From positions 5,642,001 through 5,706,000 of the forward strand of contig JANJGN010000034.1 in NCBI GenBank assembly GCA_026770705.1: a stretch of DNA of 64,000 nt, read 5' to 3'. Position numbers and translations under genes: made by a program. The notes beneath the pieces are model-generated. The model saw only the letters and a program-made list of their open reading frames with translations, was not told where the DNA came from and ran no database searches. Shown in pieces: positions 9,861 to 57,060 of this stretch. This stretch comes from Isurus oxyrinchus. Lineage: Eukaryota. Each line of letters opens with the position of its first letter. The first letter of the stretch is position 1.

Positions 9861-10377
9861 CCAGCAACTTGCTATAGGGTTTTACTGTGAAAGGAGAATA
9901 CAGCATAAGGACCTTGGGAACGAAGTCGTGCAACATCTTGAAAATCAAATGACGCTGATGAAAATGAAGAAAAAAGTGCTAGCATCCTTCTGGCAGAGGA
10001 ATGGAAAGTTGAGCAATGGCCGATGGAAAACGGCGAACATAATAATGAGCGTAGATCAAATGCAAATAGGAAAGCTGGTAATATTTTGTTGGTTAGGGGG
10101 CAAGTCGGCTGGAAGAAGCGAAGGCAGATATTAACAGTTGTCTATTGAGGGACCTAACAGACTATAATAACCTCACTGTGCACTATAATTTCTGAGTACC
10201 AGACTCGTCCTTTACTTTGTTTCCTGTAAATAAATCGACAAAGTTTATTTAATGCGCAATGTGCATAGCAGAATAATGTTAATAGATGAGCTCACATGAT
10301 GCCACGGGTGAAGTTATGTACTATCTCCATTACAATTATGGATGGCATGATTATTTGTTATCTTTAATTTATTTTAG

Positions 10378-10404
10378 ATCCTAACAAACTGTTCGAAGAC
10401 TTGG
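10378..10404 (+). CDS. Microexon E1 (27 nt, short A type): xPNKLFEDL
   Basis: tttaatttattttag|ATCCTAACAAACTGTTCGAAGACTTGG|gtaagc; ends TTGG|gtaagca like E11. Confidence 0.8.
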
Positions 10405-13400
10405 GTAAGCAAAATGCGTTTTTAAAAGCATTTTTGTTCGATTATCCCCAATGGCATGCTCAAAACAGAATAATTTGGCTGGAGTCATTAAGCTAGGTGG
10501 GACATTGATAACAAAAAACATGACGTTTGCTACGCGTGAACAGAAGCCTGATTGCTGATGCGATTTACTCTGGCGTATTATGGCATTCAGCAGATTGTGG
10601 CATTGATTTAACCCAGACACTGCCAGATTTGATCGCCAGACTCCTGCCCACTCAATGGCCAAACTTGTAGGCCAGCGGAATTTACGTTCCCTTCAAAGTC
10701 AATGGGCCTTAGAGTGGGTCGCTGAATTTCATGGCCCATCATAGTTGCCAACTCCTTACTAATACGTAACTGAACAGGATTGGAAATGGCATGACCAACC
10801 TTCCCTGCTTAGCCAAACAAGTGCTAATTAATTGCAAAATCAAATGCATGCAAATTATTTGCTGGATAATGTCTTATCGTCCTGGCGGAAATTCTGGATG
10901 TTCCTTGGTAAGTTCTCATTTTGTTCTGTGCCTCAAAAGTCCTGCTGAGTGACGTGGCAAGTGCTTACTTCGATCTTACATTCAAAATAAGCAGCAAGTA
11001 ATTTAACACTAAGAAGAGTAATAATTGTTTAACTGAAATGGTGGCGAAACTATGGGACCCTTTACCTCAGAGATCTATGGAAGATCAATTATCGAGAATG
11101 TGCAAGAAAATCATCGATGGTTTTCTGCATGTTAATGAGGTTAAATGATATGGTGTTAGTGAGAACAATGGCATATGCTTTAGATGACATTCCATGATCT
11201 GTTCGTATGAGCAGGTGCGACATACTAAATGACCTTCTTCTGCACGTATTTTCAATTTTCCTGTGTTTTTGTGTTCCGATACAAAGGTTGATATGCAACC
11301 TGTACTTGCAAAGCACTGGGGCTGACATTAAGCATGAGTGGGAGACGGTGTAGAGACACACAGTACGAGAAAAGTCCCGACAGGGCGTAGGGGGAACAAA
11401 CAGTGAGGGGGTTTTGTCAAAGCACCAAATCTTTAGAATATATCCACGAGTTAACCTTCTTTTCAGCTGACCAGCTTAACAAATTGCTCTTTGAAATCAT
11501 TGACTATATGCACCGACAAATGCATAACCAAAATCAGAATATCCGTGGCTGTGAAGTTGACATTGGCTGAGCTGCTGTGCATTCTGTTTCGTTCAGGTTG
11601 ATTCAGGAGTTATAAACCGATTGGAGCAGTTTGCCCTTCACTGCTGCCTAACAAAGAATAATAGCGTTTTCAGCTTCCACTCAATTTCTCTTCGCAAATA
11701 GCAGCAAGTGAAGTGAACGTGATGGGTTACAGGAATAAAACGATTAGCCATTTGTCTGTGGGACAGTATACAATGATTGCATTTGAATCGCATTATCTGG
11801 ATCTCGTATGAATTTTGCCATTTTCCAGAACTGTTGGCACTTGGACTAAAACCACGGACAGATAATATGGCAGGTCACTGCCAGTAATGTTGTTGGCAGT
11901 CATGATTTGAGACTACAGTAGGAAATGACTGTCTCTTCTTTATTGCACTAAGATGCGCAACAGCTATCCAGCTATGGTACATCTCATGTCTCAGGCCTAG
12001 ACTCTCATTCCCAACAGCAACAGATTGACAAGTGAAGTCACATGGCCAGGTGTTATCTTACAGATCAGATGAGGACAGAACTCAAGCAATGCCCGCTTTG
12101 ATACATCCATAATAGATACATGCGTGAGACATAGGAACTGTTCTTAACATTCTGCCTGCTGCTCTGCGTGCTGTACAGCAGTTACGTTCTTAGTGACAGG
12201 CCCACGTCATCCCTGATGTACTTACAAGCTGATGAATAGGAGGACGATAAGGAATATATTTAGGAATTTGATAAAGGTGGGCAGAATTCAGGTCACCCTA
12301 TTTTTTTCCAAAAAATGATTTTTTGCACTGGCTATTACCCTATCCCCAATTTCCCATTTGACCGATAACGTGCCTGTCCTCTTAACTTTCCTTTTTCAGT
12401 GACAATCACAATAATGTGTTTCTATCTGAACAGCCTGGACATGCTTTCCATTGCACATTGATAAATTAACTCTCCAGCAGCGCATACATAATAATATTTC
12501 CATGAATAATTATTACCAACAGTACTAATCGAATATGTGCTTATACTTATGCCTCCTTCCTCTGTATTTACATCCCCTGGTTAAAGCCACAGTTTCAGTG
12601 CCTAAAGCATGCTTGTGGCTTTGCTGCTGAATTGAATGGAGATGCCCTCGAAGAGAGATCTAGAAATTTTCAAAGCCTGGAAAGTTCAAAGTAGTTTGCA
12701 GCATGACGGTTTTTTTCTGTCTGAGGTGGATGACTGATAGGAAATACTACGGGAGTGGTTGGTCTCGAAAGACAGATTTTTAATTCCCGAAATTTGGCAA
12801 CAGATTCCTACACCATGGAGAAACTGCCTTATTGGGCAGACCTATAGTGCACTACTGGAGGCCAGCTTCCTGGAATTTAACTTTGCTTCGGAATCCCTTA
12901 TGCACACTGCTCTCCACATCCATGATCAAATCAATCTGAGCTTCAGTGGCAGTGAAGATTGCACAATGTCAGTCTGACCCTCCACTGCAGCCCACATACG
13001 AATTTTAGAAGCTGCTTGTGTTCTAACCGAATCAGACACATGCTATAATAGACACTGCATCATGATTGTTCCAAATGCAAGTGTTCCAATCTCTCCATCC
13101 TGTGTATGTTCTGTTCACCTCCATGCGCCTGGACCTTTATTGTTATTAGTATTAATATGACTATTATTATTAGTATTGTTATTATTATTATCCTGCGTTT
13201 CCCTCTTCTTCTTCTTCTTCTTCCTTTTTTTCTTCTTCCACCTCTTCTTCTCTCCATCTTGTTCTTCTTCATGTTCTTCTTCTTCTTGTAAATCTTCTCC
13301 ATCTTCTTTTTCCTCTTCCTCCTCACTTTTTCCAGTCCATGAAACTCTTATTTGATTCCTTCTCTACATTGACATCAGGAGGTAATATTTTCCCCATTGA

Positions 13401-16400
13401 CTCACCACCTAAGGTAGCATTAACTTAAAAATGAAATCGACACTCATATTCCATTGTCACTTATTTGTGTTGAACCCTTTTGAACGTGTTTGTTTTTTTG
13501 CAAAAAGCATATTTATTATCAAACGCTCCATGGATATTTTTATTGGCAATATTAATTAATCTCTTTTTAGCAAAAGCGCAGTTGGACAAGGACAAGGGTA
13601 ATGTGATGCATGACTATATGTTATATTCATATGTGCTAATTGTAACATTGTTAAGATATTCTTGAATAGACCTTATTTTTCTGACATAGGCACATCATTT
13701 AATTTACGATTGATGTTTACTATGGTCGGGAAAGGAAACTGGGTAGAATCATTTCAGGGCTCTGAAGAAGTGTCATGCAGACTCGGAAGGCTAACTCTGT
13801 CTCTCTGTCCATAGATGCTGCTCGGCCTGCTGAGTTTTTCCAGCATTAACTCTTCTGTTCCATTAAAATGTAAACTTAATTTCAGTATTAATGGAACATC
13901 AATTCTGTTGGAGCATTTCATAGTGGATTAATACTAAATCTTGTATGGCCATCGGTGCCTCTCGTTTTGCGATTTACCAAATAATTCAGCTGTTAAAAAA
14001 AAGATGAATGTCTTCATTATGACCATAGTTTATAGGCAAAACTTACTGCACTTTTTAATTACATGAGTACGGGCATATCCGGACATTTGCCATCACTGAA
14101 GCTGGTGACATCCTGTGAACGGGAAAAAAAAAGAAGTTATTACATAATGTAAACAAGTGAACATACATACAAAAACTGAAGTAAATGCAATGCAAATTAT
14201 ATTTTTCCCGTTATCCGGAGGGATATCCATATAGATGGTATAGTGCCTAAATTTGTGCAATCGATTGAGACAGTTGGCAAATGAGATCTTATGTAATTAT
14301 CGCATATTAAAGCAATTTGAAATTGTATTAAAACAGTGTATTAGCATAACAGAATACATGTAGATCCCAGCGGATATTATGTGTAGAGAAGCTGTAAGGG
14401 ACATGTTATAACTATGCTGCAGAAAATGCAGATAAGTACTTTATTTGCAAAAAATGATGAATGAATTCAGTTAGGTGGAAGAAATGGAGCAGTGGCGTTT
14501 TTTCTCCTCAAAAACAGGTTTATTAAGGGGAGAGTTAAGAAAGCAATACAGAACCACTAATGCTTCAGTGATATAAACAATTACTTGTTTCTCCTATGGC
14601 AGAATGACGTAAGCTCCTGTGGGGTGGAGTGTGGGAGAGGGTTGGTGGTGGAGGTTTTACGTTAATTGCCAATGGGTCGAGAGGCGAACGGCTAAAGCTT
14701 TCTCATGACAAGTGGCTGTTTTCTCCATGGAACCATTGCCTGAAATACTTCTGGATATAGAATCAATGAGGAATTTCACTATCTGGCTGGAAAGGGACCT
14801 GAAAAGAGATCTGTAGCATTAGACATTAAAGTATGGGAGAGTGGTTAAAATTGGCTTTTTTTTTCAAATGGACAGCAGAAACACGGTGGCTTAAATTCAT
14901 GTTGAGCCACACAGCATTGACTTGATGCTTAGTTTAAAGAGAAAGAGTATTAAATTCGGGGTGTAAATGGAGAACAAATCCATTTGGGATGACACGCATC
15001 CCAGATGATATTGGTCACCCGATATTTTGTTTCCAGGATATCACACAGCAGCCCAGTGAAAATGCTTAATGAAATGGGCTGAGGGCGAAATTTAACTTTC
15101 TGCTGGGGTGATGCAAATCATGGTGTCCGGAATGGGCTCTGCTTTGCAAATCCTGTATTACCGACGCAAAAATAAGATAACATAAGATGGGTTGCATTGA
15201 GGTACCGACGACCTTATCACTCATGATACACAACTGTAATAATATCTCCCAAGATTTAGCCTATTCAATTTCCAATACGCACTGTTTGCCTTCTCGAATT
15301 TTGCTTTTCAGAAATACGCAAATTGAAAGAGGCATTGAAAGATGCGGGTGAGAATAATTATCGAGTGAGCTCATATCGTCACCAGACGTAAACATAACAT
15401 TGACGATTGCGAAATCGCACTTACACTGCAATGGTGATTTTTGCTTAGTACATAAAATACGTTTTGAAAAATCTGCAATCAATTCTATGCATCTTAGAAT
15501 CACATTCCCAGTAATTTTAATGGTAATATCACTAGCGGGAGGCGACAGATTTAGCATCAGCTACCACACCATTTCATTGAAGTTTAACAAGCCTGACTTA
15601 AGTCAACAAAATAAAAATCAAGCCATGCATATTTTGAAAATGAAAAAAAAAACAACTTAGAATTGAAAAAAATTAGTACCTCTGGTGTAACTGTTCGGTA
15701 CAGTTGTTTAATATCCAGAAAAATTGTCTTCCATCCCATGCATCTCGCACGATGAGGGTATATTTATATGTCATTAGGCCCACTCCTATGAATGCATAGC
15801 GTGAAACACTTACACACATATAAAATATATAATTGTTCATCGTTGAGATTTTTGTGTTGGGAAAGTGCCCCCAGTCTATCCACACTTCCCAGGCATTTTT
15901 TAGTAACTCATTTTAGTGTTTCTCCTTTTAATTCCTATTGCGTTTTTTCACCGATTCTAAAACATAAACCATCAATGGACATCTCAAGATAGACCCTTCC
16001 CTATCCTATTTGCTTTCTACTGGGACCCATCCTCCCTTCTCGCCCAGGTACACCCATCCTCCCTTCTCGCCCAAGTACACCATAGCCATTTGCTCTAATT
16101 TTGTCCATTGTGTGCTTATTATCCTTCAGCACAGATATATGCTTTATGTCCTGGTCAGAGAATTCAGGTCACGCTAAGCAGTGCTCTATCGGAACATTTT
16201 TCATATGCATTGTTGCATTGCCATTAACTTGGAAGGTTTGAAAAAACACCTTTGTTTATATCACTTTGTTATTCTCACATTGTTATGTAAGGCAGAGCTT
16301 CTGAATGGAATCAGAGGAAATCGAACAGACCAATGAAAATTACTTGGATCTTAATTGGATAGACTATTCGCCTCAGAATAGATGTGTTAAGGGGGAGATA

Positions 16401-19400
16401 TAAGGGCTACATTTAAGGAACTACAGGCGTTCTGTAGAGCAAATACTGCAACACTGTTTATTCCCAAAAGCAGAAGCATGGTGTAAACCAAAGAATACAT
16501 ATTGAAGGCAGTTAGCAAAACGATTCAGGTAATATTGATTTATTTTAAGTGTCAAACTTATTTTAATGAACCAGGCCTCACTGGCTAAAGGGGCAGTGAA
16601 ACAACTTAACCATGAGCATCTAAAATGTCATTTGATACTTAATAGTAAGAAACACATTTAGAAGGCCATGGAAAGAGAACAGATACTAAGCGAGTAACTG
16701 GATAGCTTTTTTCACAGAGTACGGTGATCTGAATGGCCTTTGGCTGTTTTCCCATTCCATGATGCAATGATAATCAACACGTAACTTATTTCTTATAGAG
16801 GAAAAGCTGCGTGCATGCAAAGAAGGTAATGAAAAACTATTGTTTTTTGTGATAAAATCAAATACTGTGGATGGTGGAAAACTGAAACCGTATAAACAAT
16901 TGCCTGAAAAACTAAGCAGGCCTGACGACACCTATGGAGAGACAGCTAGACCCAGAACATTAACTCTGGCTTTCTCTCGAAAGATGCTGTTAGACGTGCA
17001 AGTTTTTTTTCCAGAAATATTTTTGGTTAGCTTTTGAACAGAAAAATGTATTATTGTATACAATAAGAAACATGGTTACTTGTAATAAGCAATAGTTCTA
17101 CTTGTGCTGTTGTAAATATTCTGATTTCCAATTAAGTTGTGCGTTATCTGTTCATGAAAAACAGCTCCACATTAATTTTCTCATTGATATTATTTCTTTC
17201 AAGTTTTATTTTAAAGCAGCACCTCCCATACTTGGATATAGTGAATAACCCAACCACCCGCCAGTTCTTTCCGGAGTCGAGAACTCAGAAGAGCAGACCC
17301 TCTGCGTGGAGTAATTACTCATAATCTCCGTATTAACTGGGCCATCCGTTATTCTGAAATTATGACCACTTATTCAGAAACACCCACAAGGGAAATATCT
17401 TCTCAAGGTGGAACTTGTCATGCCCCAGAAAAGCTGATATGGTTAACTAAGTTTACTTTTCCAGCTTTTTGATACATTACTGTTATAAAGAGTTGAACAC
17501 TGACCATATGCATCTGTACGATGCTTGTTTTGCTTTGAAGCCAATTATCTTTAATCACTGCATATTTTTTCTCTCAATTAGAACTGGATGGCTACGCAAA
17601 AACTGACGGTGGGTAGAATGATACCACATAATCAGTGAGACCACAGGGCTACTAGCAAATAACTGCACATAGTTTCAGCTCAGTTTGCTTGCCGGGGTAT
17701 TTTTACTAAGCTGCTGATTTCCCGTTTTTGAAAGAAGAAGCAAGCGACAAACTAAATTTGGAATAGACCAATTCACGGAATGAAGATTTAAAGAATTGTT
17801 TTCAGTTGAAAAGTGGCAAGGGGCATTTGCACAACACAAGTATCAAATAATGACCATCTCCTACAAGAGAAAATGTAATCATCTATCTCTGGCATTCATT
17901 GGAATTACTATATCTGGACTCCCCAGTTATTAACATTTTATGCATAACAATTGACTCTATTGCACTTCTGTGCTACTAATTGTCCCTCTATCTATGAAAA
18001 GCAAACAATCGGTAATATGCACTACTCCTGCATTTACAGAATATTAACACATAAAGTTCACATTTGTCAAATCGAAGATGGGTTTTGAAGAATAAGCCAC
18101 ATTTTATGTGCCACAGGAAAAAATATGGAATCCGACTACACACTTATGGTCATGTTTATCAGAAACATGCGTAGAAGTGGAAATATTCACAAGCACATCT
18201 TATGTAGTAAATTACATTTACTCGTTTTGAAATCGATATGGATTGGTTTCCCTGCCAGTCTAGTAAATTTGTTATTAGCTGTAGTGTTATGTATTCATTG
18301 GATCTGTGATCAAAGGTATGGTCATTATTATTGTCCATCTTCAATTGCAATTGTAAATATGTGGGTAAGTCGTTTTTTGCACGGATGCAATTAATGTCAC
18401 TGATGTTTGCACACAGTGTTGTTTTGAATGGCTGCAATCAGTGTCATTTATGTTCACACACAGTGCTGTTTTGGATGAGGTGCCATGATTTTGCCACCGT
18501 GGCATTGAACGAGCAGGGATTTAGTTTCCAGTCAGGGTGGTGTGTGCCTTAAAAGTGACCTCATAGGTGTTGATATCTCTCAAACTTCCTTGCCGCATAT
18601 TTGGAAGATGCTTTTTAAGACATTTTCCCAAGTCAATACAATGCATATTCGACATTCTACATCTTTTTTCATTGTTTCACAGTGTTGGAGGAATGAACAT
18701 TCCAGGTTCTAGATGGAATGTTAATAAATCAGGCTGTTTTTACAAATAGATATCAAATTACTTGATTGCTGCTGGAGCAGCCCTGAGATAGAGAACTGTA
18801 CATTGTCCCATTGCATTCTTGAAATTAGCCATATAAACTCGGGCGGCTTTAAGGGGTTAAGTGCTGAGTTAATCACTACATAATTGCTACCCTGATAGTA
18901 GCTCTTTTAGCCATTATATAAATGGCTGCTCCAACGATATTTCTACTCAATGGTTGCCCACAGAATACCGTTGATTTCACTGATGCTATTAACGTTGAAT
19001 GTCGAGAAGAGATGCTTAGGTTCAACAGTAATGGGTGCTGTCATTGCCTGGCAATTGAACGGCGGATTCGGTAACTACAATTTAATTGTTTAAGATTATT
19101 GAAAGAACAGGTATGTCAGATGGAGGCAGCGTATTTCCTCTCAGTTGGAACTTGATCGCAAGGCAAAATTATCTTCAATTTAAATCGTAACTAGTGAGGA
19201 CTGCTGCCAGACAACTCAACGTTGTAGATAGGGCATTAGAAATCTGGAGTGATGTCTCCAAAATTAAAAACACAGCAAAAAAAAAACGAAAATTGAATTT
19301 TGAAACACAAATCAAAAAAAAGTATTAAGACTTACAAAAAGTCAATTTGTGGGAAAAAAATTAAGTGCTCTTCTGAATTAAACAGATTTCCCCTGAGCAC

Positions 19401-46400: not shown

Positions 46401-49400
46401 GTAAATAAAAGAACGTGCAATTGGAGACATGCGGAGAAACGTTTGTTTATAGTCACGCATCGTGTTTAAGATGTTAATTGGGCTGGTTGATAACGTGGCG
46501 AAAGGATTAATTCTTCGTATTCAAGAGGAAACTGTATTGCTTTCTCAAAAACCTCTACCTCTAACCCTAACCCAAACTTGCAGCTTTTCATGTGGAGAAT
46601 GCGATTAAGTCACTTGTTCTTTCGGAAAGCCGGCACATTGAATTGCATCCTTCTGTGCATGTGTCAATTCTGATATACTTATAAACCTGTGCTATACAAT
46701 GACGGGTTTTTTTTTAAATATAACTTGAGCATTCAATGAAAAATGTAAGTAATCACATTTGTGCCACGAAACATGGACCTGAAGCCCTATCTCACTCAGA
46801 AAGCCGACACATGCGCAGTTTATCTCGCTGCTGATGCGCTACCTCCACCGCCTTTGTACCGGAACCTCAGGCTTTCCGCTTCTCGCTCTGCACTCGATCC
46901 AAGCCGTCTACTCGTTGCTACATACGCCTGTGAGCTTGCTGCTGTGCGCTGTTCACTCTTCACTCATTCCGCCCACGCTCACCAGAGTTTGCGACGCGCC
47001 ACACATTCTTTCGTCCACATCCTGCTATTCGATCAGGTGGGCTGGCGAAAGGGACTGTGGTGGCAGGCAAACGATTGGAAAGGGCTTGAGTTGCGAGTGG
47101 TAGATCGATGCGAATATAACAAAAATTTCAGGATAGGGTAGAAGCCGCAAAGTGAGTTGCAAAGAGAGCAGGAAGATGTGGGATGCTTCAGGGAATGGAA
47201 AGGATGTGGATTGGAATTGTTAAGGAAGGCGGACAAGTTGGGAGCCACGTGTCATTGTGAATGGGAGTGGCAAGCACCAGGGTAGCAAGAACGGGAGGGA
47301 GCGTGGTTTATTTGTAAACTGTGGGGTTTATGATGAAGGCAACGCCCTAGGACGTCGTTGAATGACAGAGAACCGGGGAGGGACAAATTTCACAACTTTC
47401 ACAGGCACCATGAGCATAACTCCCAATACCTGTGCTGTGGGATTCCAGCCAATCCACCAACCGATTGAAAGAATTGAATCTGAACTAATCAGCTCATTTA
47501 ATTTCCATCTGTGCCAACAAGAGCAGCCACGCATAAGAGGTGCTCCAAAATGAATATTCAACCGGACTAGAAGGCAGAAGACCGGCCTTTAATTGGATCC
47601 ATTCATTTCGCACAAAAGGCTCCCTTAGTTCAACAGCTAAGGTCGAAATCACGCTATGCCGAATGACTCCAGCAGCATGTTCAATCCGCAGAGAAGTTCA
47701 GCTAGTTCCTGCAGAGGGCGCCATTTTTATTTCTCATAACCATATCGTGCTTTAAATCATGATTGTCAAATATCGGGAAAAGCAAAGACACGTTTCTACT
47801 GAGCAAAGCTCATATAACTGAGCCCGAACGGGAGAAATAATTTCTAGCTATGAGGCTCCCATGCCCCCTTCCAGCTACCACCCCGCCTATTTCATTTCCA
47901 GTTTTGATGCAACATCAAAATTGTCACAGCCTTTTTTCCACATTTTGATTCTCCGATTCAAATGATGTTGCTCCTATGGAATTATATTATTATTATTATT
48001 TTTGCAGAGGATAAGTTGAACCAGTGTTTGAAAGGTGAATCATTTGAAAATATTCCTTCAGATTTTTGTTTAACAATACTTCCATAGTTTTGATTGAGGG
48101 ATTCGCTCTGGCAATTTAATGTTCATGGCATGGAGGCATTAAAATACATAGAGCAAAAGTTACATTCTCCTGAATTAGTATGAAGTAGGGAAGGGAAATC
48201 AGCATAAATTGACTAATTTAACTAAACTGTCTGATTTTGAGGAAGTGTCTGCAAGTGATTGTAAGGATATTCTAGTGCCCTTCTTCAGTTCTCTGACTGA
48301 AGGAAGTTCTGACCCACAGCACTACCATGCATAGGGCGAGTAGACGAGTCCCGGAAGCACCGCATCTGAATCCGGGCTCGAAAACTGTGCTGTTGGGTCG
48401 AAATTACTCCAGACCGGCCATTCAACCACAAGCAGGTGAGAGAGTTTAACGTAAATGTCAAAACAAGAAAAAACATTAGCGTTTTATTTAAAAAAAAACA
48501 TTAAATGCCTGGTGTGTTTAGGGCCTGGAATAACCTATGAGGGCCCCTGTTGCAGTCAGATTCTATCATGGATTCGAAAAGTGTATTGTCAGATGGTAAA
48601 TAATATGTAACGTTGAGGGAGGGAAATGGGCCAGTGGTTTGAGGTATGTTGGTTTTTGCTGAGAGACAGCGCTGGAATGTCGGCTGAAAGGCCTATTTGT
48701 TTTAGAAACACATGAATCTATGGTTTTACTTAATTCTTTATTCCGACCACTTCTTTCCCTGATCCTCAGCACTGGACGATAAATGCAAAACCGATGGTAA
48801 GTAGCCTAAATGTAGAATCAATTGGAATGCCATCCTAACCTGTTTCTCTTATGCTTCATATTTGTGTGAATTAGTGATTGCAGCACATGGCTCCGAAGAG
48901 ATTGTGAACAATTCTGTCATGAACATGAGTCATAAAATAATAGCAATGTTACAAATTAAAATGCAGTGCTGAAGCAGACCAAAAGGCCAAAAATATCGAT
49001 GCTGTTGCTTAAGACGCACGCAAAATTCTTTGCAGCACCCTTCACTAACTCAATCATTATATCGATAAATTGCTTTCTCCATCATCTGCCGATGACAAGT
49101 GCAAACATTATGCATTTAACTATCTTTTTTAAACATCTCAAAAACTTGGAAATTTAAGTCACACCCCAACCATTGCATTTTATGCTTCTGGAAGAAACCT
49201 TAAAGGTTTAACAATATATCATGACAGCGAGTATCACTCAGTTATAGTCCTCTTCACATACGCAATGCCCACATAACCTTTAGTGCCTCAGCGTAATTTA
49301 ATAACATGCCATTAAAAATGGCTCAGGTTAGTGAAATTTGTATAAAATGAAAATATATCTTCTTCATGAATTTATTTATTTTCAAAAGCAATTCCCTCGA

Positions 49401-52400
49401 AATAATGTCCAGTACTTTTGGTTCTTCGCACGTTCTAACTCGTGTGGCTCCATTTATTGACCTGTGGACCTGTAATCTTCGTTCACTTTGCTTTTCTAAT
49501 CCATTTAAACATGAAATTTCCAGAGGGCATGTTGCCTCATTAATATTCCTACTGAAATGTGTTACGTGGAACGTATCTATATTGAAATTGAAGTATTATT
49601 TTCATGGTCACTTTGCCAGTAATTGGATGACACCTATTAATTTAACTTAATATAATTCCATATTAACTACAGATCAAATTTTATGCCATTTGCGAAATTT
49701 ATATTCCTTTACTGTACTCTCGAGTTTAATTGCTTTATATTGAAGCTGTACAGCTATGGAGCAAGCACTGCCCCTTGTGGATAATCATTTCCCACCAGTT
49801 CCCAATGCCAGTAAAGAACATTACCGCCTATTTGCCGTTTTATGTTCTTGAGACAGCTTGTCCTCCAGCCCTCATTGTCAGTAGTGGCGTTGTATATTCT
49901 CCCATTAGTCCAAATAACTTGTTATTTCATTGATTATCCATGATACTTCATTCTGGATTGCCAGTTTAAATGAATAGATTTGATTGTGCGATTTGTTGGG
50001 TTTGGGGTGGGGGAGAAAGTCCATCCTCACTGTACCATGGACTTGTCTAATTTCACGCCATTTGGATATCACCTGACGCCATTAAATTGCTAATGCTATC
50101 TTACATCGGACGTATTAAGCAACTGAATCTTTAGCCGAGAGAAAATCTTCTGTCATAATTCTGAGTTGCACTTCCCCGTTCATTCTAGATCATCGCCTGG
50201 TTGATGCAAAGGCTGGTAAGAAAGTGGTTTCCAATATCTTATTCGAACCCTTATATATTTGGCCCATTGTCTTGCAATATTATTAGAACTGTACATTCAG
50301 TGACTCTAACCCGCCAATGCACCTCAAGCTGTGTCTTTACTGGTTTCCTATGTGCCTCTCTCATTGTTTAAGAGCTGCTAGAATTATAGCTTTCAAAGGC
50401 CCATATTTCTGTAGCTTCTGAAGAAGCCTTAATTGATCATTACAACTTGTGATCCAATTAAAGCACTATGATATCTCGCTTGAAAAATAAATGACTGGAA
50501 TGAACTTCAAAGGCACTGATCAACTGTGAGCTAATTGAAGAAGCGTCCTCAGCGGACTGATCGACTGATCGACTTACTGCTGCTGGCGAACTAACTCAGC
50601 CGTTTTGAATGTTCAAGAATATAACTCAAGCGTTGTAATTGTGCGAAACGCTGCATGAAAGATCAGTCCATATTCAAATTCCATTTGTGCCCAGAGCCAT
50701 TTCTAAATGCTAGCGTTACATTGCTAAAAATGGTTGAAAAATACAATTTAGCAGTCCACCCCGGTTTGCATTTACAATGAAATCAACTGGTGGAAGCGGA
50801 AAATATTCTAACCATCTTTCTCTTCATGTTTCATGGAAAAGGTTTACAGCCGAATACCAAAGGATAATTTCGGATGCATGATGAATAGTATTTCATCGTT
50901 GCCCCAGGCTCATATTAAGCAAGATTTACGATTCATTCCAGGGTATTTTAAACACAATCCATTCAAAGAAGCATGCATTGTAGCAGGAAACTTTTCTTCT
51001 CCCCAGAAATTCTGCTGGCTCTTCCGAAACTTACAATCAATTGGTCGTGCTCCGCTTCCTGACCTTGCATTTTCTTCCAGTCGTCAAAGCATGTCAAATT
51101 AATTTATTAGGTTCGCCATTGAAAGCGCTTGGACCACCCTTTCAGTCAATAAATTGCAAATCTTAATAATTTGTTAACTGAATAAAACACGCCTCGTCCC
51201 ATGTTCCTTAACCCATTATCTCGCAGGAAGTCACATTGCTTCATTATTGGAAACCTATCCTTTCCTAATCTATCAAACACGTGACGCCTTCAAACATATT
51301 TATTTTATCTTCGTTCTAACGAGAACAAACGCCTTTAAAGGCAGTCCTAGTAATAATAATAATCATTATCATCATTATTATCTGCAGAGCTTGCAAAGCT
51401 GAAAAAGGATCTGAAAGATAAAGGTAAACAAATCAATGATTAGCTGATTTTTTTTAAAGAGTTTTTTTTTACCTTCAGACATTTTCATTGAAAGCGTTCT
51501 AAACTAAAAAAGGCATCGATGTGCAACGGTGGAAGCGTTATAGCTATCAAAGTCACAGCAAAGTAAAATAGTGTGGGGTTGGGGGAGCGGGGAGTCTAAT
51601 CTGCATAACTGTCATTATACGGTTGCTACCTCCATTCACCGGAATGACATACAGAGGCAAAGATCAAATTATCAGTACAGGTTCAACGATTTCTTTTTTT
51701 TTTGGCTTTCTTTTGTTTGTAGGAAATCAAATGGTTATTTCCATGATCCGTTCAGGATCATAATTGATAGGTTGGTATAGCCGCTGGTCGCGGAGAACAG
51801 AACTGGCTGACGCAATTTGAGACCTAATACATTCAGGCATGGTATCAGGAAGCAGTGCATCACACAGAGAGCAGTAGAAGACTGAAGATCTTTGCTGCTA
51901 AACATGTTAAAGCAGGGTTTTTTGACTATTTGCAAATGTAGACTCATAATAAAAAAACAGGGAAGTGATGCTGAGAAATTATCAACCATGATAGAATTGA
52001 AAGTATCGACACCATCGACTGATTGGCGTGTGCCTGTTTACCTGTTCCTAAGTACGACACTTGCAGCGTCAGATTGTAGATATTGAATAGAATCTGGCCT
52101 GTCCTCTACCTATTATTGGTTCGCCATTATAAAATTAGACGTCCGAAAAGCATTTGTTTCAAACTGCCAAATTTATTGAGCAAGAATAAGATACATTAAA
52201 TAAAGACAATTCCATTTTCACTAAGTTCAGTTTGGCGATATATGCATTATTACTGTAAAACATCACAGTTGCTATTCAGACCGCTTTCATTTGGTATTAA
52301 TTAAATTATCAGATCAGAAACATCAACGAGCATGCAATGGTGAGTATACAAAACAAATGCTCACCTCACTAGTCTTTTGGGCATATAATGTGTCTTTCAC

Positions 52401-55400
52401 CCATCAGGGTAGGAGTGAATGTTGGCTGGCGGGTCACCTTGCCCCATGTCCAGCTAATCTGTTATACCACGCCCACACTTTCCGCCACCACCGGCAACAC
52501 TTTGTACTACAGCGGACATCTAATTCAATTAAATTGAATCAATTTTCAGACCTCCAGTGAAGCGTAGCTGCATATCTTTAATTCCACACATTAATTTTTC
52601 ATCACAGTGGATTTTTCTAAGTGAGTGCACGTTAGGTGCTCTTTGAGAGTGGTTTGAACTACTCTGCTATGTTTCTGTTTATTTTGAAGAGATCGAAGAG
52701 CTGCTTGAAAACACAGGTAAGCAACTGGATATTTGAGACGAATATTGTAAAGTTAACTTATGCTTTATCTATATAGGTTTAGCAGCCATTCTACAAAGCA
52801 AAGGGAGAAGCGGCCCTATGCGATAAGACAGACAACATTAAGGAAAAAAGCTTTATTGTTGCTTTGCCTTTTGAATTCCATTGAAATTCTGAGAAACAAG
52901 TTTTGGTGGGTGTGCACATTCCTGGGGGTGAGGTGGCGTAAATTCAAAATGTTCATTCATTTCCTTTGTATATAAACGGTACTGTATCTCCCCTGTTAGA
53001 TACAGTTAGCATGTCTGATAGGAATAAAGTGACAAAGGTTAAAAGCAGATGGCGACTATATTACCGAAATGGTCAAAATGTTACAAAACCATTTTCAGAA
53101 AACATGTCCATAAACGGAACATTTTCTACATCACAAGCTAAACCCGTATTTATATCCACATCAGTACTAATATTAAACTTGAAATCTATGTTATTAATAA
53201 AGTAAGGTTTTATTTTAATTAATCTACAATGTGACGGCGTCACTAAATGTCATGGTAATTCTCCATGCCTAATTTTTCTGGAGTGTGTGACGTTGAGATG
53301 AATTCTTGAATACATCTGACTGGCGAGCTAGGACATATCGGATGGCAGCTGATATTTAGCCACTCTGCTGTTTACCTGGAGTGATAAAATGGTTAGGTCA
53401 CATCACGATGATAATTTATTTCCATAACTTACGTTTGATAAAAGACGGGACTTTTGCAACAGTGGGTGGTTTCATGATCATCTTTGCAGGTATTCTCCTT
53501 TGAACTTACCTTTCACAGATTCTGCGATTGGATTGGAATTAATGCCTCTGGATCATTAAGGAAATCAAAAAATGGCATAGATCACACCAGGAACAGACGG
53601 TGCATTCAGTCTGCACCGCCACTGAATCCAATCGTGGCTCATCGATCTCGCCTCTATCTATCACACACCCCGACATGGTTGGGTTCCCTGGGAGATCAAG
53701 TATAAAAGCAATCATAAATGTGCATATTTTCAAAAATGGAAATAAATTCCCCTTGGGATAAAAATGTCGATAAGCCGCTGAATTAATCGATTTCCATCCA
53801 TGTCCAACCCAAACGATTGAAAGTTAAACCTATGGTTGCATCTCCATTTGAAGATTCCGCAGAGAGGTGAAACAAACTGTAGGTGTTTACATGAGTCTCT
53901 TTATGAATAGCCCAGCAACATGACCTTAATTATATCACACCACGATTTACCTGATATAAAATCAGTAATTGCAATAAAGCAAACTAATTGCAAACTTGTC
54001 CACATGTGGGCGTACCTAGTTCCTTTAGCAGACATACCAAGGTTCCATGGGTAAATTCGAATTACGGAAGAATAGAATCAAGAATGAGAGATAGTGAGGG
54101 AAGGAAGGCAGTTCTTTTGTCAAATAGATATTAAGTGTGCAAGAATTGTCATAAATCAGTGGAAATATAAAACAGATTTATTGTCCAGAGCGAGGTGCAG
54201 CAAACTAATGTGTCCACCAGAATTCAAAAAGCAGGCCAAAGGAACTCGAACTGACTCGGGTCAACGGGGGATATCACTGCAAATAAACAAAAGAAGCATC
54301 GATTTCGAGCCAGTGCATACCTCTAAATTTGGAAAAGACACTGGAACAGTTACAATGTTGGTTTTACAGTATTTCACTTTTACAATTCGAGACTCATAGT
54401 GGGGCAGAAAAAAAAATGGGCCAGGCCATTTTCGGTTACACTGAAGCCTCTGTCGAGGCACAGTCAGACCATTTAGTTAGCAGATAACTTACAATTCTGA
54501 CCGGGAGAGAACGATTTTCCTCACTGGAAGCTACCCAACATCAAATTAATCAAAGTGAGGAAAACCTAGCTTTCTTGCGGAGTTATCAGACTCTGTCCTT
54601 AACGACCTTCTGATGAGTCTGAAGATTCTGGGTCGGAACAGGTTGATTGATCGGCAATGCAAAGTCAAGCAAAAGCGTCAGTCAGTCTCTGGCAAAGCGA
54701 CAACACAATTTGCATGGTCAGCTGAACCTGGAGTCTACGAAATGTAATTTAGTTCCAGACGCAAGCATTTTTAAAAATAGCGGCAATTACGGAAATAACG
54801 AATTTGAGGTTTGGGGTCGGAGGGGGGTGAGAGTGGGAGATACAGAGGTTAGGAAATAGCCGATATAAAATCTTGTAAAGATTTTATGAAGAGTTAACGA
54901 AGGTAGGGTTGGAATTAATGACTCATGCTTTGCGGTTTGATTCAAAAGGAGAATTGTTGCTGTATAGCTTAGCCTGAACAATTAAATGAATTGAAATGCC
55001 AGAACTATAGGGAAAGGGAGACTTGCTTCATGGAACACAATACAGTGGGATTAAAGGATATCCCAGGAAGTCTTTGGAAGTTCTAGGTAGGACTAATTCT
55101 TCCAAAGCAAAGCACAGGGGATTAAATTAATATACGCACTAAATACGATCTGATTGACACCCTGATCTGTCTCAGGAGGCTGCAAAATCTATCCATGTAT
55201 TCTTGATTCTAGCTCTAAAAATAATCAATAGGCGTAAACAAAAACAGAATTAGCTGGAAAAACTCAGCAGGTCTGGCAGCATCGGCGGAGAAGAAAAGAG
55301 TTGACGTTTCGAGTCCTCATGACCCTTCGACAGAACTTGATTGTCGAAGGGTCATGAGGACTCGAAACGTCAACTCTTTTCTTCTCCGCCAATGCTGCCA

Positions 55401-55752
55401 GACCTGCTGAGTTTTTCCAGGTAATTCTGTTTTTGTTTTGGATTTCCAGCATCCGCAGTTTTCTTTGTTTTAATCAATAGGCGTAGTCTGTTTAAATTAA
55501 TCGGAAGTGTTAAATGTAAATGCATTTTGATATCATCGCAGTTTTCACCTGGGACGGTTTTGCACATTGAATTCAATTGAAATCGCGTTTCTTTCAAAAT
55601 GTTAAAAGCAACTTGTCTTTCAAACTTCAAATCAATCAATCGTGTTTTGAATCGGTTTACTGTGGAGTTCATGCGAACATGAGCTTAATTGTGTCACATT
55701 ATTAAAGTGATTTTATACATTGCAGCAAGCAAATTGTTCGACAAAGAAAGAG
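10378..55752 (+). CDS. Multi-microexon gene (5'-partial) encoding an ~197-aa Lys/Glu/Leu-rich heptad coiled coil; architecture reminiscent of butyrophilin/chicken B-G heptad-exon tails, identity unresolved
   Basis: About 20 short exons, each AG...GT, each a multiple of 3 and phase 1-1, all on + strand. They concatenate without stops into a 3-4 hydrophobic repeat, and paralogous exons are similar to each other. Confidence 0.88.
13136..13325. repeat. Compound (TTA)n / (TCT)n microsatellite
   Basis: Directly visible; explains the low-complexity ORFs 13060-13326 and 13106-13291. Confidence 0.95.
13571..13597 (+). CDS. Microexon E2 (27 nt, B type): AKAQLDKDK
   Basis: ctctttttag|CAAAAGCGCAGTTGGACAAGGACAAGG|gtaatg; paralog of E12. 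Confidence 0.88.
13758..13860 (+). mobile_element. Penelope-like 3' end with decayed hammerhead motif
   Basis: ctgaagaagtgtcatgcagactcggaaggctaactctg...agatgctgctcggcctgctgagtttttccagca. Confidence 0.7.
14330..14920 (+). mobile_element. Decayed CR1 3' fragment
   Basis: ttctcctcaaaaacagg...aaggggagagtta...ggaaccattgcctgaaa; typical CR1 C-terminal/3' pattern. Confidence 0.5.
15312..15347 (+). CDS. Microexon E3 (36 nt, A type): EIRKLKEALKDA
   Basis: ttgcttttcag|AAATACGCAAATTGAAAGAGGCATTGAAAGATGCGG|gtgaga; 25/36 nt identical to E13. Confidence 0.92.
16025..16078. repeat. 27-bp tandem duplication
   Basis: acccatcctcccttctcgcccaggtac followed by acccatcctcccttctcgcccaagtac (1 mismatch). Confidence 0.9.
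16799..16825 (+). CDS. Microexon E4 (27 nt, B type): EEKLRACKE
   Basis: cttatttcttatag|AGGAAAAGCTGCGTGCATGCAAAGAAG|gtaatg. Confidence 0.88.
17582..17608 (+). CDS. Microexon E5 (27 nt, short A type): ELDGYAKTD
   Basis: ttttttctctcaattag|AACTGGATGGCTACGCAAAAACTGACG|gtgggt. Confidence 0.75.
18560..19060 (-). mobile_element. Decayed LINE fragment (3085 family, reverse)
   Basis: ttgctgctggagcag...gtgctgagttaatcac...gtagctcttttagccatta...atggttgcccacag...aacgttgaatgtcgagaagagatg is the reverse complement of the family pattern. Confidence 0.55.
20040..20380 (-). mobile_element. Penelope-like element end (older copy)
   Basis: Reverse-complement similarity to 57880-58230 (gttaacatttcgagtc, ctggtttaaag, ggtgttgaaggtgctgatattatcta). 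Confidence 0.7.
21522..21548 (+). CDS. Microexon E6 (27 nt, B type): DQQLKDTKA
   Basis: ttcctctgctag|ACCAACAGTTGAAAGACACAAAAGCAG|gtgaatcatt; same intron start as E16. Confidence 0.85.
21852..21985. repeat. Degenerate (TG)n/(GA)n microsatellite
   Basis: Directly visible. Confidence 0.9.
22755..22945. mobile_element. Old degenerate Penelope-like inverted end
   Basis: aatgctggaaattctcaacag...cagcaacatttgtggagagag ... ctctctcctccagatatgctgcc...tttttgcttcta. Confidence 0.55.
26180..28330. mobile_element. Decayed CR1 fragments (endonuclease on +, ~26180-26680; RT on -, ~26700-28330)
   Basis: PIRDENILDLVL-like segment at ~26580; reverse RT-region remnants downstream. Confidence 0.5.
30008..30043 (+). 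CDS. Microexon E7 (36 nt, A type): ELKKLKEILRNK
   Basis: gatttttttttag|AATTAAAGAAGCTCAAAGAGATATTGAGAAATAAAG|gttaaa (weak donor); paralog of E17. Confidence 0.85.
30570..31010 (-). mobile_element. Deu-domain SINE (SacSINE1/AmnSINE1-like), decayed
   Basis: gtagtcacttttgtaat, ataattggccagggc, tatgccatgg, gtcagcacgtcc, gtgtcagtttagaatt resemble the reverse strand of the recalled DeuSINE consensus. Confidence 0.55.
31443..31469 (+). CDS. Microexon E8 (27 nt, B type): DGDLDKKNK
   Basis: cattattcttag|ATGGCGACTTGGATAAAAAAAATAAAG|gtgagtaaaca. Confidence 0.85.
31700..31738 (+). CDS. Tentative microexon E9 (39 nt, A type): ELEGKRKDVTDGQ
   Basis: tttgtttgttgactgcag|AATTAGAGGGG...GGACAAA|gttgga. Good acceptor and A-type start (AATTAGAG vs AATTAAAG in E7), in the expected slot, but the donor is weak. 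Confidence 0.45.
32961..32981 (+). CDS. Tentative microexon E10 (21 nt, shortened B type): (K/E)LLNNKE
   Basis: ctgcctacaaacag|AGCTCTTGAATAACAAGGAAG|gtaact; donor gtaac shared with its positional paralog E20. Confidence 0.55.
34959..34985 (+). CDS. Microexon E11 (27 nt, short A type): ELEDLAKKL
   Basis: gctaac (branch-like)...gactttcag|AACTTGAGGATCTTGCCAAGAAATTGG|gtaagc. Confidence 0.9.
36400..40610 (+). mobile_element. Cluster of decayed CR1 ORF2 pieces
   Basis: RT motifs in broken frames: ANVTLWFKK (~37220), QYGFINGKSCATNLIE (~37370), IKFTVDTK (~37730), HRGFMK (~40170). Confidence 0.75.
39360..39975 (+). mobile_element. LINE 3' fragment (3085 family) nested inside CR1 RT
   Basis: gggattctgcggcgagtaactcacc, gatggaatactctc, caaggacaaagc, caccaccttctcaaag, A-rich tail; the CR1 reading continues on both sides. 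Confidence 0.8.
40890..40916 (+). CDS. Microexon E12 (27 nt, B type): AEAVLAKDK
   Basis: tgtttctttccag|CTGAAGCAGTGCTGGCAAAAGATAAAG|gtagat. Confidence 0.88.
41240..43030 (+). mobile_element. Several CR1 3'-end fragments
   Basis: ggccatttaggactgag...ttctttactcaaaa; tggcagatcaaatttaatatagagaag (WQIKFNIEK); ggcccactcctgc tails. Confidence 0.6.
43491..43526 (+). CDS. Microexon E13 (36 nt, A type): EIRKLKNALEDK
   Basis: tcttctttttccctctag|AAATTCGCAAATTGAAGAATGCTTTGGAAGACAAAT|gtgagg. Confidence 0.92.
44531..44557 (+). CDS. Microexon E14 (27 nt, B type): SKELKECEQ
   Basis: atcccattacag|CTAAGGAGCTGAAGGAATGTGAACAAG|gtacat. Confidence 0.88.
45670..45770 (+). mobile_element. Penelope-like 3' end, ending ~50 bp upstream of exon E15
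   Basis: ttctgagaagagtcacacaggtcc...ccacagatgctgctggatctgctgagtttttcagcatttcctgttt. Confidence 0.7.
45819..45854 (+). CDS. Microexon E15 (36 nt, A type): ERNKTRKYLKET
   Basis: atttctacacag|AACGGAACAAGACGAGGAAATATCTGAAAGAAACAG|gtgaat. Confidence 0.85.
48008..48034 (+). CDS. Microexon E16 (27 nt, B type): EDKLNQCLK
   Basis: attatttttgcag|AGGATAAGTTGAACCAGTGTTTGAAAG|gtgaatcatt. Confidence 0.9.
49300..51340 (-). mobile_element. Decayed CR1 pieces, reverse strand
   Basis: Reverse-complement CR1 endonuclease and 3' patterns (tctaacgagaacaaac, ttcgccattgaaag, caagctgtgtctttac). Confidence 0.45.
51388..51423 (+). CDS. Microexon E17 (36 nt, A type): ELAKLKKDLKDK
   Basis: ttattatctgcag|AGCTTGCAAAGCTGAAAAAGGATCTGAAAGATAAAG|gtaaac. 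Confidence 0.92.
52313..52339 (+). CDS. Microexon E18 (27 nt, B type): DQKHQRACN
   Basis: aattatcag|ATCAGAAACATCAACGAGCATGCAATG|gtgagtataca; intron start nearly identical to E8's. Confidence 0.82.
52690..52716 (+). CDS. Microexon E19 (27 nt, short A type): EIEELLENT
   Basis: tttctgtttattttgaag|AGATCGAAGAGCTGCTTGAAAACACAG|gtaagc. Confidence 0.85.
53519..53559 (+). CDS. Candidate alternative terminal exon: DSAIGLELMPLDH*
   Basis: Pyrimidine-rich acceptor cttacctttcacag; phase-1 reading ends at TAA 53557-53559; AATAAA at 53741-53746. It lies upstream of E20, so it could only be an alternative end. Confidence 0.3.
55237..55470. mobile_element. Young Penelope-like inverted-repeat insertion with perfect 15-bp TSD
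   Basis: ~96-bp arms around loop gaacttgat (55333-55341), 2 mismatches seen; TSD taatcaataggcgta at 55222-55236 and 55471-55485. Confidence 0.9.
55288..55340 (-). ncRNA. Minimal type-I hammerhead-like motif with variant core (CUGUCGA...GAAA CG UC)
   Basis: Minus strand reads aagtt-CTGTCGA-a-gggtc-atgag-gactc-GAAA-cg-TC-aactc: stem I AGUU/AACU, stem II GGGUC/GACUC, palindromic stem III; A6 replaced by U. Confidence 0.55.
55726..55752 (+). CDS. Microexon E20 (27 nt, B type): ASKLFDKER
   Basis: ttttatacattgcag|CAAGCAAATTGTTCGACAAAGAAAGAG|gtaacc. Confidence 0.8.
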
Positions 55753-56569
55753 GTAACCACTCAACATGTCTGCATGTACCTCTGTTTTAATTGTACAATG
55801 CTATGTGCCCCTGCTGTATTGCACTTCTCTTGTGAAATGTATTGGTAGAAATGGGTCCGAAACCATAGGACAGAAAAGGGGATATTGATTCAGCATTCCT
55901 TTATAAGTCTCATTTCAGTTTGGCACATTTTACAATCCGTATTATTCTTTGACGGGATGAGGAGGTCTTTGGCTATGCCAACATTCTTGGCCCATCGAAA
56001 ATTGCCTTTGGGAAGCTGGAAATGAACTACTCTTTGAACCGCCACAAATCAATGTGGTGTTGGGAAACAAACATTGCTACGAAGGTAGGAGTTCCAGGAC
56101 ATTGACCCTATTGGTGTAAGTGAAGTGAAGCACCTGGTAGGGAATATTACAACTTTTTTGTATATTAATGTCCTTATTGCACCAATTCCCCTGACACATT
56201 CCAACCCCCTAAACGACTCAGATAATCATGTTATAAGTAACAGAATCTGATTGTAGCCAGATGTCGATAGAGTTTTCTAGTCTCACTATTTACTATAAGG
56301 TGTTAATTGAGCGTTTATAATGACAACTGTCAATATAAGCTTGTCATTTGCATTCAGCAGAAAAAAAAAACTCATCCGAACCACTTCAAAGCTTGCCAGT
56401 TTTATTAAGTGTACATTTAGGAATGCCATCAATGAGTCGAACTTAAGTGTGCGATGTAGTTTTCATGAATACAATCGGGGAAGTGGCGGCAAAATGATTG
56501 TATGTTGTGTGAGATCAGGAAGAAACATGTTGCATACCATTTGCACATTGTTCTTTTGCAATTATTAGC

Positions 56570-57060
56570 ATTCCTTCATTGGATGCAGCAGCTGGAAAGA
56601 CGAGAATGTGTTCGCTATCCCTAATTCCCTTTGCACAGGTGTTGGTCAACAGACGTGGACATTTCTATAGCGATTTCGTACAGCTTAAAGGCTTTGTCGG
56701 GAATTTCAGAAGCATTTAAAGGTCATTCATATTGTTTTCGGTCGGGAGACCAGGAACTGACCAGGTGAAGAAATCAGATTTGCTTCTGGAAAGAACATTA
56801 GCGAGCATTACGCTACGCCACCACGGCCCCCCACCCCCCCCCGCCCCCAAGACTCCAGCCTACCTACTCCCCACCCGGCCCCAACAACTGACGATATTTT
56901 CACGGCAGCATTACTGCATATATCTTTCAAAACACTTTTAATATTTAATTAATTTAATGAACTCCCACAAGCTGCCAAGCTCGGATAGTAAGTAATTTCC
57001 CAAAGTTTGAGCTTTGTCCTCTGGGTACCTCCTACAATCAGATTGCCACTAATGCAGCGT
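56570..57060 (-). mobile_element. tRNA-type SINE, same family as 298-600
   Basis: atccctaattcccttt, tttcagaagcatttaaaggtca, gaccaggtgaagaaatcagatttgcttc, cccacaagctgcca. Confidence 0.6.

What the first reader, a model, noticed from the sequence alone, without database searches (positions are those of the whole stretch)
10378..55752. Higher-order duplication: exons E1-E10 and E11-E20 are two copies of a 10-exon block
Seen: positional pairs match in exon and/or intron start. E1/E11 TTGG|gtaagca; E2/E12 AKAQLDKDK vs AEAVLAKDK; E3/E13 EIRKLKEALKD vs EIRKLKNALED, both |gtgag; E4/E14 LRACKE vs LKECEQ; E6/E16 both |gtgaatcatt; E7/E17 ELKKLK..L..K vs ELAKLK..L..K; E8/E18 |gtgagtaaaca vs |gtgagtataca; E10/E20 |gtaac. 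Blocks are 98 and 99 aa. E3/E13 differences include synonymous changes (ATA/ATT, AAA/AAG, GCA/GCT, GAT/GAC), while I saw no intron-body similarity by eye. Inference: an ancient ~23-kb intragenic duplication doubled the rod and has been under purifying selection.
Basis: seen in the sequence. Interest (0 to 1): 0.7.

Follow-up and report, generated by a model that had tools for sequence, protein, structure and literature searches.

The report
Block-duplicated giant shark micro-exon gene
The tiny exons are there, but they do not form two matching 10-exon blocks; they are about 5% of what is likely one 1.55-million-base shark gene of 430 or more tiny exons, predicted to encode a very long, probably secreted helical rod ending in a B30.2 binding domain and likely grown by repeated copying of exon blocks.

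Summary
The motifs and the E3/E13 synonymous changes are real, but the symmetric 10+10 model fails. The blocks are 9 exons/87 aa and 13 exons/126 aa. A weaker version survives: 7 of 9 block-1 exons have collinear best matches in block 2. Only the head (E1-E4 with E11-E14) beats an exon-class null (P=0.007, register chosen after the fact); the rest follows from a 4-exon, 39-aa unit. Nothing was doubled: the window lies inside about 1.55 Mb holding at least 429 phase-1 micro-exons (15, 21, 27, 36 nt; about 4,140 aa), ending in a B30.2/SPRY exon and probably starting with a signal-peptide exon. A clear higher-order repeat lies 180-460 kb past the window: ten tandem 26-30-kb blocks of 11-13 exons, 80-82% identical, with 110 of 110 core exons intact. 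No RNA proof. The scan reported this gene before from other windows.

The parts
10378..10404 (+). 27-nt phase-1 exon (E1); head of block 1
   Evidence: reciprocal best hit of 34959
13571..13597 (+). 27-nt exon (E2)
   Evidence: best in-window match 40890, 16/27
15312..15347 (+). 36-nt class-A exon (E3)
   Evidence: 25/36 nt to 43491, reciprocal best hit
16799..16825 (+). 27-nt class-B exon (E4)
   Evidence: best in-window 44531, best regional match 82.8 kb before the window start
17582..17608 (+). 27-nt class-C exon (E5)
21522..21548 (+). 27-nt class-D exon (E6)
   Evidence: in-window partner is 50189, not 48008
30008..30043 (+). 36-nt class-A exon (E7)
   Evidence: conserved in paralog 27/36
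31287..31313 (+). 27-nt class-B exon
   Evidence: conserved in paralog 24/27
31443..31469 (+).
   Evidence: conserved in paralog 23/27
32961..32981 (+).
   Evidence: inside a repeat; no AG or GT in paralog
34959..34985 (+). 27-nt exon (E11); head of block 2
40890..40916 (+). 27-nt exon (E12)
43491..43526 (+). 36-nt class-A exon (E13)
   Evidence: paralog 35/36
44044..44070 (+).
   Evidence: AG..GT and open frame conserved in paralog, 24/27
44531..44557 (+). 27-nt class-B exon (E14)
   Evidence: paralog 27/27
45819..45854 (+).
   Evidence: paralog 30/36
48008..48034 (+). 27-nt class-B exon (E16)
   Evidence: paralog 23/27 with a different donor
48770..48796 (+).
   Evidence: paralog 26/27; closest relative 81.9 kb before the window start, 21/27
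50189..50215 (+).
   Evidence: paralog 20/27 with splice sites intact
51388..51423 (+). 36-nt class-A exon (E17)
   Evidence: paralog 33/36
52313..52339 (+). 27-nt exon (E18), weak score, not checked in paralog
52690..52716 (+). 27-nt exon (E19)
55726..55752 (+). 27-nt exon (E20)
1..64000 (+). whole window lies inside the predicted gene G000:C34:4844708-6396339 (candidate leader exon C34:4844708-4844756; 4-exon-unit run C34:5543527-5586132; ten-copy 28-kb block C34:5884818-6166843; B30.2 coding stretch C34:6395821-6396336, all outside the window)

Best explanation
The window holds 22 phase-1 micro-exons of 27 and 36 bases that likely belong to one 1.55-Mb shark gene of 430 or more such exons, predicted to encode a probably secreted, cysteine-studded coiled-coil rod of about 4,100 residues tipped by a B30.2 domain, and likely built by nested tandem duplication rather than by one doubling of ten exons. 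Every exon is a multiple of three and starts and ends in phase 1 (shown), so any run of exons can be copied or lost without breaking the frame (follows from the sequence). Copying shows at four scales: a 36+27-nt pair (21 aa, three heptads), a 4-exon 39-aa unit, multi-exon blocks, and the whole gene. The young 11-13-exon block in ten copies and the whole-gene copy are shown by intron identity. An old block duplication in this window is inferred, at about 60% for the E1-E4/E11-E14 head, with later gain or loss of exons. Function is inferred: chains would oligomerise as a segmented coiled coil (a few Pro/Gly linker exons), likely stapled by core cysteines outside the cell, holding B30.2 heads at the end of a rod of up to roughly 600 nm, as an extracellular binding or scaffold fibre whose length evolves by block copying.
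For: Exon reality: strong-splice-site phase-1 segments over C34:4.86-6.40 Mb, + strand against - strand: 15 nt 28 vs 2, 21 nt 25 vs 0, 27 nt 116 vs 2, 36 nt 122 vs 3, other in-frame lengths 0-4 on both strands. 11 of 11 accepted window exons tested keep AG..GT and an open frame in the paralog (292/333 nt, 88%, against 82% over aligned columns); 4 other candidates do not. Catalogue: 429 exons, 4,138 aa, 1 stop codon in 428 junctions, hydrophobic period 3.5, Cys 3.7%. Ends: B30.2 at 6,395,821 and none in between. The paralog at 6.43-7.50 Mb matches both the 4.83-4.85-Mb start and the 3' end, and joins 4.850 directly to 5.091 Mb. Leader; 2 of 7 database relatives examined (skate XP_055510696, chimaera XP_042192744) also begin with a hydrophobic leader. 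Relatives' RefSeq isoforms differ by in-frame blocks of 9 aa (three species) and 6 aa, and an older chimaera model by a further 7 aa. Young repeat: dN 0.084, dS 0.149, 110 of 110 core exons intact at about 19% genomic divergence. B30.2 against paralog: dN 0.043, dS 0.095. Window block: 7 of 9 collinear best hits, P=0.002 against order shuffled within length class; P=0.002 against a same-class null.
Against: No transcript evidence links the exons to each other, to the leader or to the B30.2 exon. Exon models were trained on the locus itself (controlled only by the minus strand and leave-one-out). The leader's donor is weak, an internal acceptor of score 8 lies inside it, and no signal-peptide predictor was available; 5 of 7 relatives' models lack a hydrophobic start. 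The 5' rod exons (4.86-5.08 Mb) show no significant similarity to the chimaera protein (score 20.8; 181 of 200 shuffles as good). Gaps of 52 and 27 kb without catalogued exons exist. The window-block P values come from a register chosen after looking, with class labels made by rule; the E1-E4 run ranks only 16th of 670 four-exon runs; no intron homology supports it.
Confidence: 0.62

Rival explanations
1. One reading: one ancient ~23-kb duplication of a 10-exon block doubled the rod.
For: E1-E4/E11-E14 and E7/E17 match in position; block 1 and block 2 are each other's best 12-exon partners.
Against: Blocks are 9 and 13 exons. E5/E15 differ in length; E6/E16 and E8/E18 rank 26 and 49 of 60. Only 2 pairs are reciprocal best hits among 110 exons. 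The rod has at least 429 exons.
Confidence: 0.05
2. No block duplication in this window: the pairing arises only because exon classes recur in a fixed order (A-B-C-D plus a two-exon head) throughout the gene.
For: The second half of block 2 is closer to the upstream 4-exon array (48770 with -81884, 21/27; four-exon runs 7.5 and 7.0) than to E5-E8 (5.0; P=0.06). No intron homology. The margin over the next-best partner is small (6.4 vs 5.4).
Against: E1-E4/E11-E14 beat the same-class null (P=0.007), and E1/E11 and E3/E13 are reciprocal best hits region-wide.
Confidence: 0.35
3. The product is a cytoplasmic TRIM-derived or BG/zipper-like coiled coil with B30.2, not a secreted protein.
For: Butyrophilin heptads and B30.2 domains are cytoplasmic (PMC4046983 passages; for TRIMs recalled); 5 of 7 relatives' models have no hydrophobic start; the leader exon is only a prediction.
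Against: A Met-initiated hydrophobic exon is conserved at 61 of 61 nt up to its GT; skate and chimaera models start the same way; core-position cysteines fit an oxidising compartment (inference). No Ig, transmembrane, RING or B-box exon was found at the 5' end.
Confidence: 0.3
4. The 1.55 Mb is an exon library used in subsets (alternative starts and heavy skipping), or two or more shorter genes, so no 4,000-residue product exists.
For: All exons are frame-neutral; relatives' isoforms skip such blocks; the longest relative of this subfamily that I examined is 1,697 aa; the paralog lacks a 240-kb segment.
Against: A single B30.2 exon closes the whole array; 110 of 110 core repeat exons are intact, so all copies appear to be used.
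Confidence: 0.3

Closest known systems
Chicken BG (B-G) genes and the zipper protein (PMC5938342 and PMC4046983, passages read)
   Same: Coiled-coil tail written one small exon at a time (21 nt; 27-38 repeats); exon and gene number expand and contract, the latter by unequal crossing-over; alternative splicing alters tail length.
   Different: BG has signal, IgV and transmembrane exons and a cytoplasmic tail without B30.2. Here there are over 400 exons, mostly 27 and 36 nt, no Ig or transmembrane exon found, a terminal B30.2, and a megabase span.
Butyrophilins BTN/BTNL (PMC12841164 and PMC4046983, passages read)
   Same: Heptad repeats followed by a C-terminal B30.2 (PRY-SPRY) domain.
   Different: BTNs have IgV/IgC, a transmembrane segment and only a few heptads; none of the Ig or transmembrane parts was found here.
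Unstudied chondrichthyan coiled-coil + B30.2 models: XP_055510696 (skate, 295 aa), XP_042192744 (chimaera, 1,697 aa), XP_038668997, XP_069775384, XP_038672306, XP_042191566
   Same: Nearest B30.2 relatives (about 35-45% identity); RING-less coiled coil in front; isoforms differing by 9-aa blocks; two begin with a hydrophobic leader.
   Different: Carry automatic names (TRIM-like, A33-like, nuclear-pore anchor-like) and are much shorter than the 4,100-aa rod predicted here.
Titin/connectin (PMC12198301, passage read)
   Same: Giant modular protein gene with hundreds of exons (363 in human, called the largest number there).
   Different: Unrelated domains; titin spans 283 kb with 114 kb of exon, against 1.55 Mb with about 12.4 kb of catalogued micro-exons (0.8%).

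Membership tests
   9 exons/87 aa vs 13 exons/126 aa
   met for E1-E4 (P=0.007, post hoc), tie for E7, not for E5, E6, E8, E10
   expected if very old, so not decisive
B30.2/SPRY domain proteins | C-terminal SPRY domain | tested here: met
   PF00622 E 3.4e-12 on the paralog's exon; 92% identical exon at 6,395,821; linkage by splicing not shown
Butyrophilin (BTN/BTNL) | IgV (+IgC) ectodomain | tested here: not met
   no Ig motif in 4.80-4.955 Mb; a genome search with the neighbouring IgV gave no hit between 4.8 and 6.4 Mb; a very divergent Ig could be missed
Butyrophilin (BTN/BTNL) | Transmembrane exon before the heptads | tested here: not met
   no convincing conserved candidate among hydrophobic donors
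Butyrophilin (BTN/BTNL) | Heptad exons followed by B30.2 | tested here: met
Chicken BG genes | Many 21-nt heptad exons | tested here: met
   34 of 429 exons are 21 nt, most in C34:5.08-5.31 Mb
Chicken BG genes | IgV + transmembrane, no B30.2 | tested here: not met
   B30.2 present; IgV and transmembrane exons not found
TRIM proteins | RING and B-box at the N-terminus | tested here: not met
   recalled RING/B-box patterns found nothing credible in 4.80-4.955 Mb; no Pfam scan of that region was run
Secreted protein | Cleavable signal peptide in the mRNA | tested here: inconclusive
   conserved hydrophobic Met exon; no predictor or RNA available

The most novel reading that the evidence does not exclude
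One shark transcription unit splices more than 430 micro-exons, more than titin's 363, into a secreted coiled-coil fibre of about 4,300 residues (about 0.5 MDa, up to 600 nm) tipped by B30.2; its length evolves in quantised steps by copying blocks of frame-neutral exons at nested scales, with ten selected copies of a 28-kb block as the latest step, and five such genes lie side by side.
Probability: 0.4. Interest if true: 0.82.

Novelty: new variant of a known kind. Interest (0 to 1): 0.58.

Why it matters
If one transcript uses most of these exons, the gene would exceed titin in exon number while coding in under 1% of its span, a natural test case for how the spliceosome finds hundreds of 15-36-nt exons. 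It preserves block duplications of graded age (old head pair in this window, 4-exon units, a young 28-kb block in ten copies, whole-gene copies), so rod growth by exon-block copying can be dated and tested across sharks. A secreted B30.2-tipped rod would be an undescribed extracellular protein type in cartilaginous fish. The specific 10-exon doubling proposed here is not the important part and is mostly wrong.

Tried and rejected
RNA: no RNA holder was listed for window:43400-53000; contigs of 5 same-species runs laid on the B30.2 region (4 runs) and on window 36500-56400 (4 runs) covered mainly repeats and showed no exon joints; this is no evidence either way. The IgV and transmembrane exons 17-27 kb past the paralog's B30.2 were considered as this family's ectodomain and rejected: they match a stand-alone 237-aa nectin-2-like protein at 96%, and samples at 7.52-8.01 Mb show no micro-exon array. 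Homology of the 5' rod to the chimaera 1,697-aa protein, suggested by eye, failed a shuffle control. Candidates 32961, 33857, 43852 and 48560 were rejected by paralog comparison; 36911 was not tested. Other leader candidates at 4,828,199 (frame-breaking gaps in paralog) and 4,834,014 were set aside. The E2/E12 flank match is low-complexity. A search with the 111-nt 5' exon found only itself. Two word-index protein searches with B30.2 exons returned one hit each. The ESM Atlas gave only automatic A33-like and butyrophilin-like names for the skate protein. Literature searches that found no paper on this family: 0 papers; 1, chicken; 0; 0; listings only, apart from the four papers whose passages I read. 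No exon tree was built (27-nt exons carry too little signal); reciprocal best hits were used instead. No fold of the spliced rod was run. The extent of the array was mapped by fetching stretches, so related arrays elsewhere in the genome were not surveyed.
Full report
OBSERVATION. The window is G000:C34:5,642,001-5,706,000 in a 4.98-Gb genome. A neighbouring gene is 96% identical to a Carcharodon carcharias protein, so the organism is likely a lamniform shark. All 8 peptide and 4 DNA motifs from the finding that I tested are present on the + strand. Splice-site scans gave 27- and 36-nt segments flanked by AG..GT, all phase 1 at both ends. The E3/E13 synonymous changes are as described. Negative or large positions below are window coordinates extended along the contig (C34 position minus 5,642,000).

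THE 10+10 COUNT FAILS. A second copy of the gene lies 1.09 Mb downstream, 77-81% identical including introns. I compared 15 candidates in three stretches (about 13.8 kb aligned). Four do not, among them 32961, the only |gtaac candidate for E10 that I found, which lies in a local repeat. Block 1 is therefore 9 exons (87 aa) and block 2 13 exons (126 aa). Eleven accepted exons were not checked in the paralog (10378-21548, 34959, 40890, 52313-55752). The donor matches used for E6/E16 and E8/E18 are weak evidence: exon bodies rank 26 and 49 of 60, the paralog's E16 donor differs, and such matches occur in 4 and 19 of 5,995 pairs.

WHAT SURVIVES. These tests were run before 44044 was accepted, so they omit it. 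Best block-2 matches of the 9 block-1 exons are collinear for 7 (E1-E4 with E11-E14, E5 with 48770, E6 with 50189, E7 with 51388; P=0.002 against shuffled order within length class). Exon classes recur in order throughout the gene, so I also used a same-class null over 110 exons between -290 and +100 kb: P=0.002 for eight corrected pairs, 0.007 for E1-E4, 0.06 for E5-E8. All registers were picked after looking. Block 1's best 12-exon partner is block 2 by a small margin (6.4 vs 5.4), and the E1-E4 run ranks 16 of 670. Only E1/E11 and E3/E13 are reciprocal best hits region-wide; 48770 pairs with an exon at -81,884 and 51388 with one at +82,701. No intron homology links the blocks. Synonymous sites are saturated (E1-E4/E11-E14: pS 0.74, pN 0.32 on 20 synonymous sites). 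Reading: an old duplication of at least the head is more likely than not, reshaped later; the dominant old periodicity is a 4-exon 39-aa unit, clearest at -98 to -56 kb.

THE GENE. Walking the contig gave a continuous 1.6-Mb stretch. Strong phase-1 segments peak at 15, 21, 27 and 36 nt on the + strand only (28/2, 25/0, 116/2, 122/3 plus/minus). The catalogue holds 429 exons (224 of 27 nt, 147 of 36, 34 of 21, 24 of 15) from 4,868,774 to 6,395,161, 4,138 aa, K/E/L/D-rich, 3.7% Cys, hydrophobic period 3.5, one stop in 428 junctions. A few 27-nt calls will be false (6 minus-strand hits at the main threshold), while Pro/Gly linker exons such as 44044 are under-counted. The array ends in a B30.2/SPRY exon at 6,395,821; five such exons of this subfamily lie on C34 (2.71, 3.47, 4.82, 6.40, 7.50 Mb), and none lies inside the array. 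The paralog (6.43-7.50 Mb) matches 4.828-4.850 Mb, jumps to 5.091 Mb, and matches the 3' end, which fixes the start and argues for one unit. At 4,844,708 a Met-initiated hydrophobic 16-codon stretch is identical in both copies over 61 nt, ending on a phase-1 GT, followed by a conserved 30-nt exon. I read it as a signal peptide; the donor is weak and no predictor was available. No Ig, transmembrane, RING or B-box exon was found.

A REAL HIGHER-ORDER REPEAT. At +242.8 to +524.8 kb lie ten tandem blocks of 25.6-29.7 kb, each with the same 11 core exons (103 aa) plus up to two more (15 of 20 positions found). All 45 pairs are 79.8-82.1% identical over a mean of 26.2 kb, consistent with one burst of copying. 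All 110 core exons are intact; dN 0.084, dS 0.149 (about 53 synonymous sites per pair, pairs not independent).

RELATIVES. The nearest single-domain B30.2 matches among 1.84 billion representatives are chondrichthyan RING-less coiled-coil proteins with automatic names (8 clusters looked up, plus one). Their isoforms differ by in-frame 9-aa and 6-aa blocks. Two of seven examined start with a hydrophobic leader. The 5' rod showed no significant match to the chimaera protein.

MECHANISM. Shown: symmetric phase-1 exons, heptad periodicity, terminal B30.2 exon, nested duplications, selection on exons. Inferred: single transcript, secretion, disulfide-stapled oligomeric rod (up to about 600 nm at 0.15 nm per residue, a recalled value), a binding or scaffold role, and growth by unequal crossing-over as proposed for chicken BG genes (PMC4046983, passages). 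No RNA evidence was obtained.

COMPARISON AND NOVELTY. It works like the exon-per-heptad tails of BG genes (PMC5938342, passages) and the heptad-plus-B30.2 end of butyrophilins (PMC12841164, passages), but fails their Ig and transmembrane criteria, so it is not filed as either. Human titin has 363 exons (PMC12198301, passage). Eight searches found no paper on this family (listed under Tried and rejected); subscription journals and supplements were not seen. Earlier notes of this scan describe the same gene and its neighbours from other windows; they are not independent support.

VERDICT. Observation partly confirmed, interpretation partly supported; new variant of a known kind; interest 0.58, carried by the gene rather than by the 10-exon claim.

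Noticed in passing
G000:C34:7513578-7524148 (L140, L131) and C34:6424337-6424612 (L158): Nectin-2-like IgV plus transmembrane gene just after the paralog's B30.2; a second copy after this gene's B30.2 has a TGA inside the match, so it was duplicated with the segment and may be broken. More IgV relatives lie at C34:13.07-13.73 Mb.
   Followed up: partly
G000:C34:7014173-7168381: 17 copies of a sub-unit of the 28-kb block, mostly 6-20 kb apart, in the paralog: a separate, shorter-period expansion.
   Followed up: no
G000:C34:6283000-6333500: A further two-copy block near the 3' end: one paralog stretch matches both 6.283-6.293 and 6.324-6.333 Mb at 81-84%.
   Followed up: no
G000:C34:5751600-5781000 (L016-L019): Short block of exons (36-36-27 pattern) in three to four copies with near-identical peptides.
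   Followed up: no
G000:C34:5084784-5307817: Segment built mainly of 21-nt one-heptad exons (31 found, 0 on the minus strand), the most BG-like part of the gene.
   Followed up: partly
G000:C34:4850373-5091193: 240-kb segment with about 45 divergent rod exons that the paralog lacks.
   Followed up: partly
G000:C21:82.9-118.2 Mb: Dense cluster of well over 100 other B30.2 exons, probably TRIM or butyrophilin families.
   Followed up: no
window 8143-8362, 55236-55474, 58117-58228: High-copy SINE-like repeats, some as inverted pairs.
   Followed up: no
window 36911-36937: Weak 27-nt phase-1 candidate between E11 and E12, not tested in the paralog.
   Followed up: no
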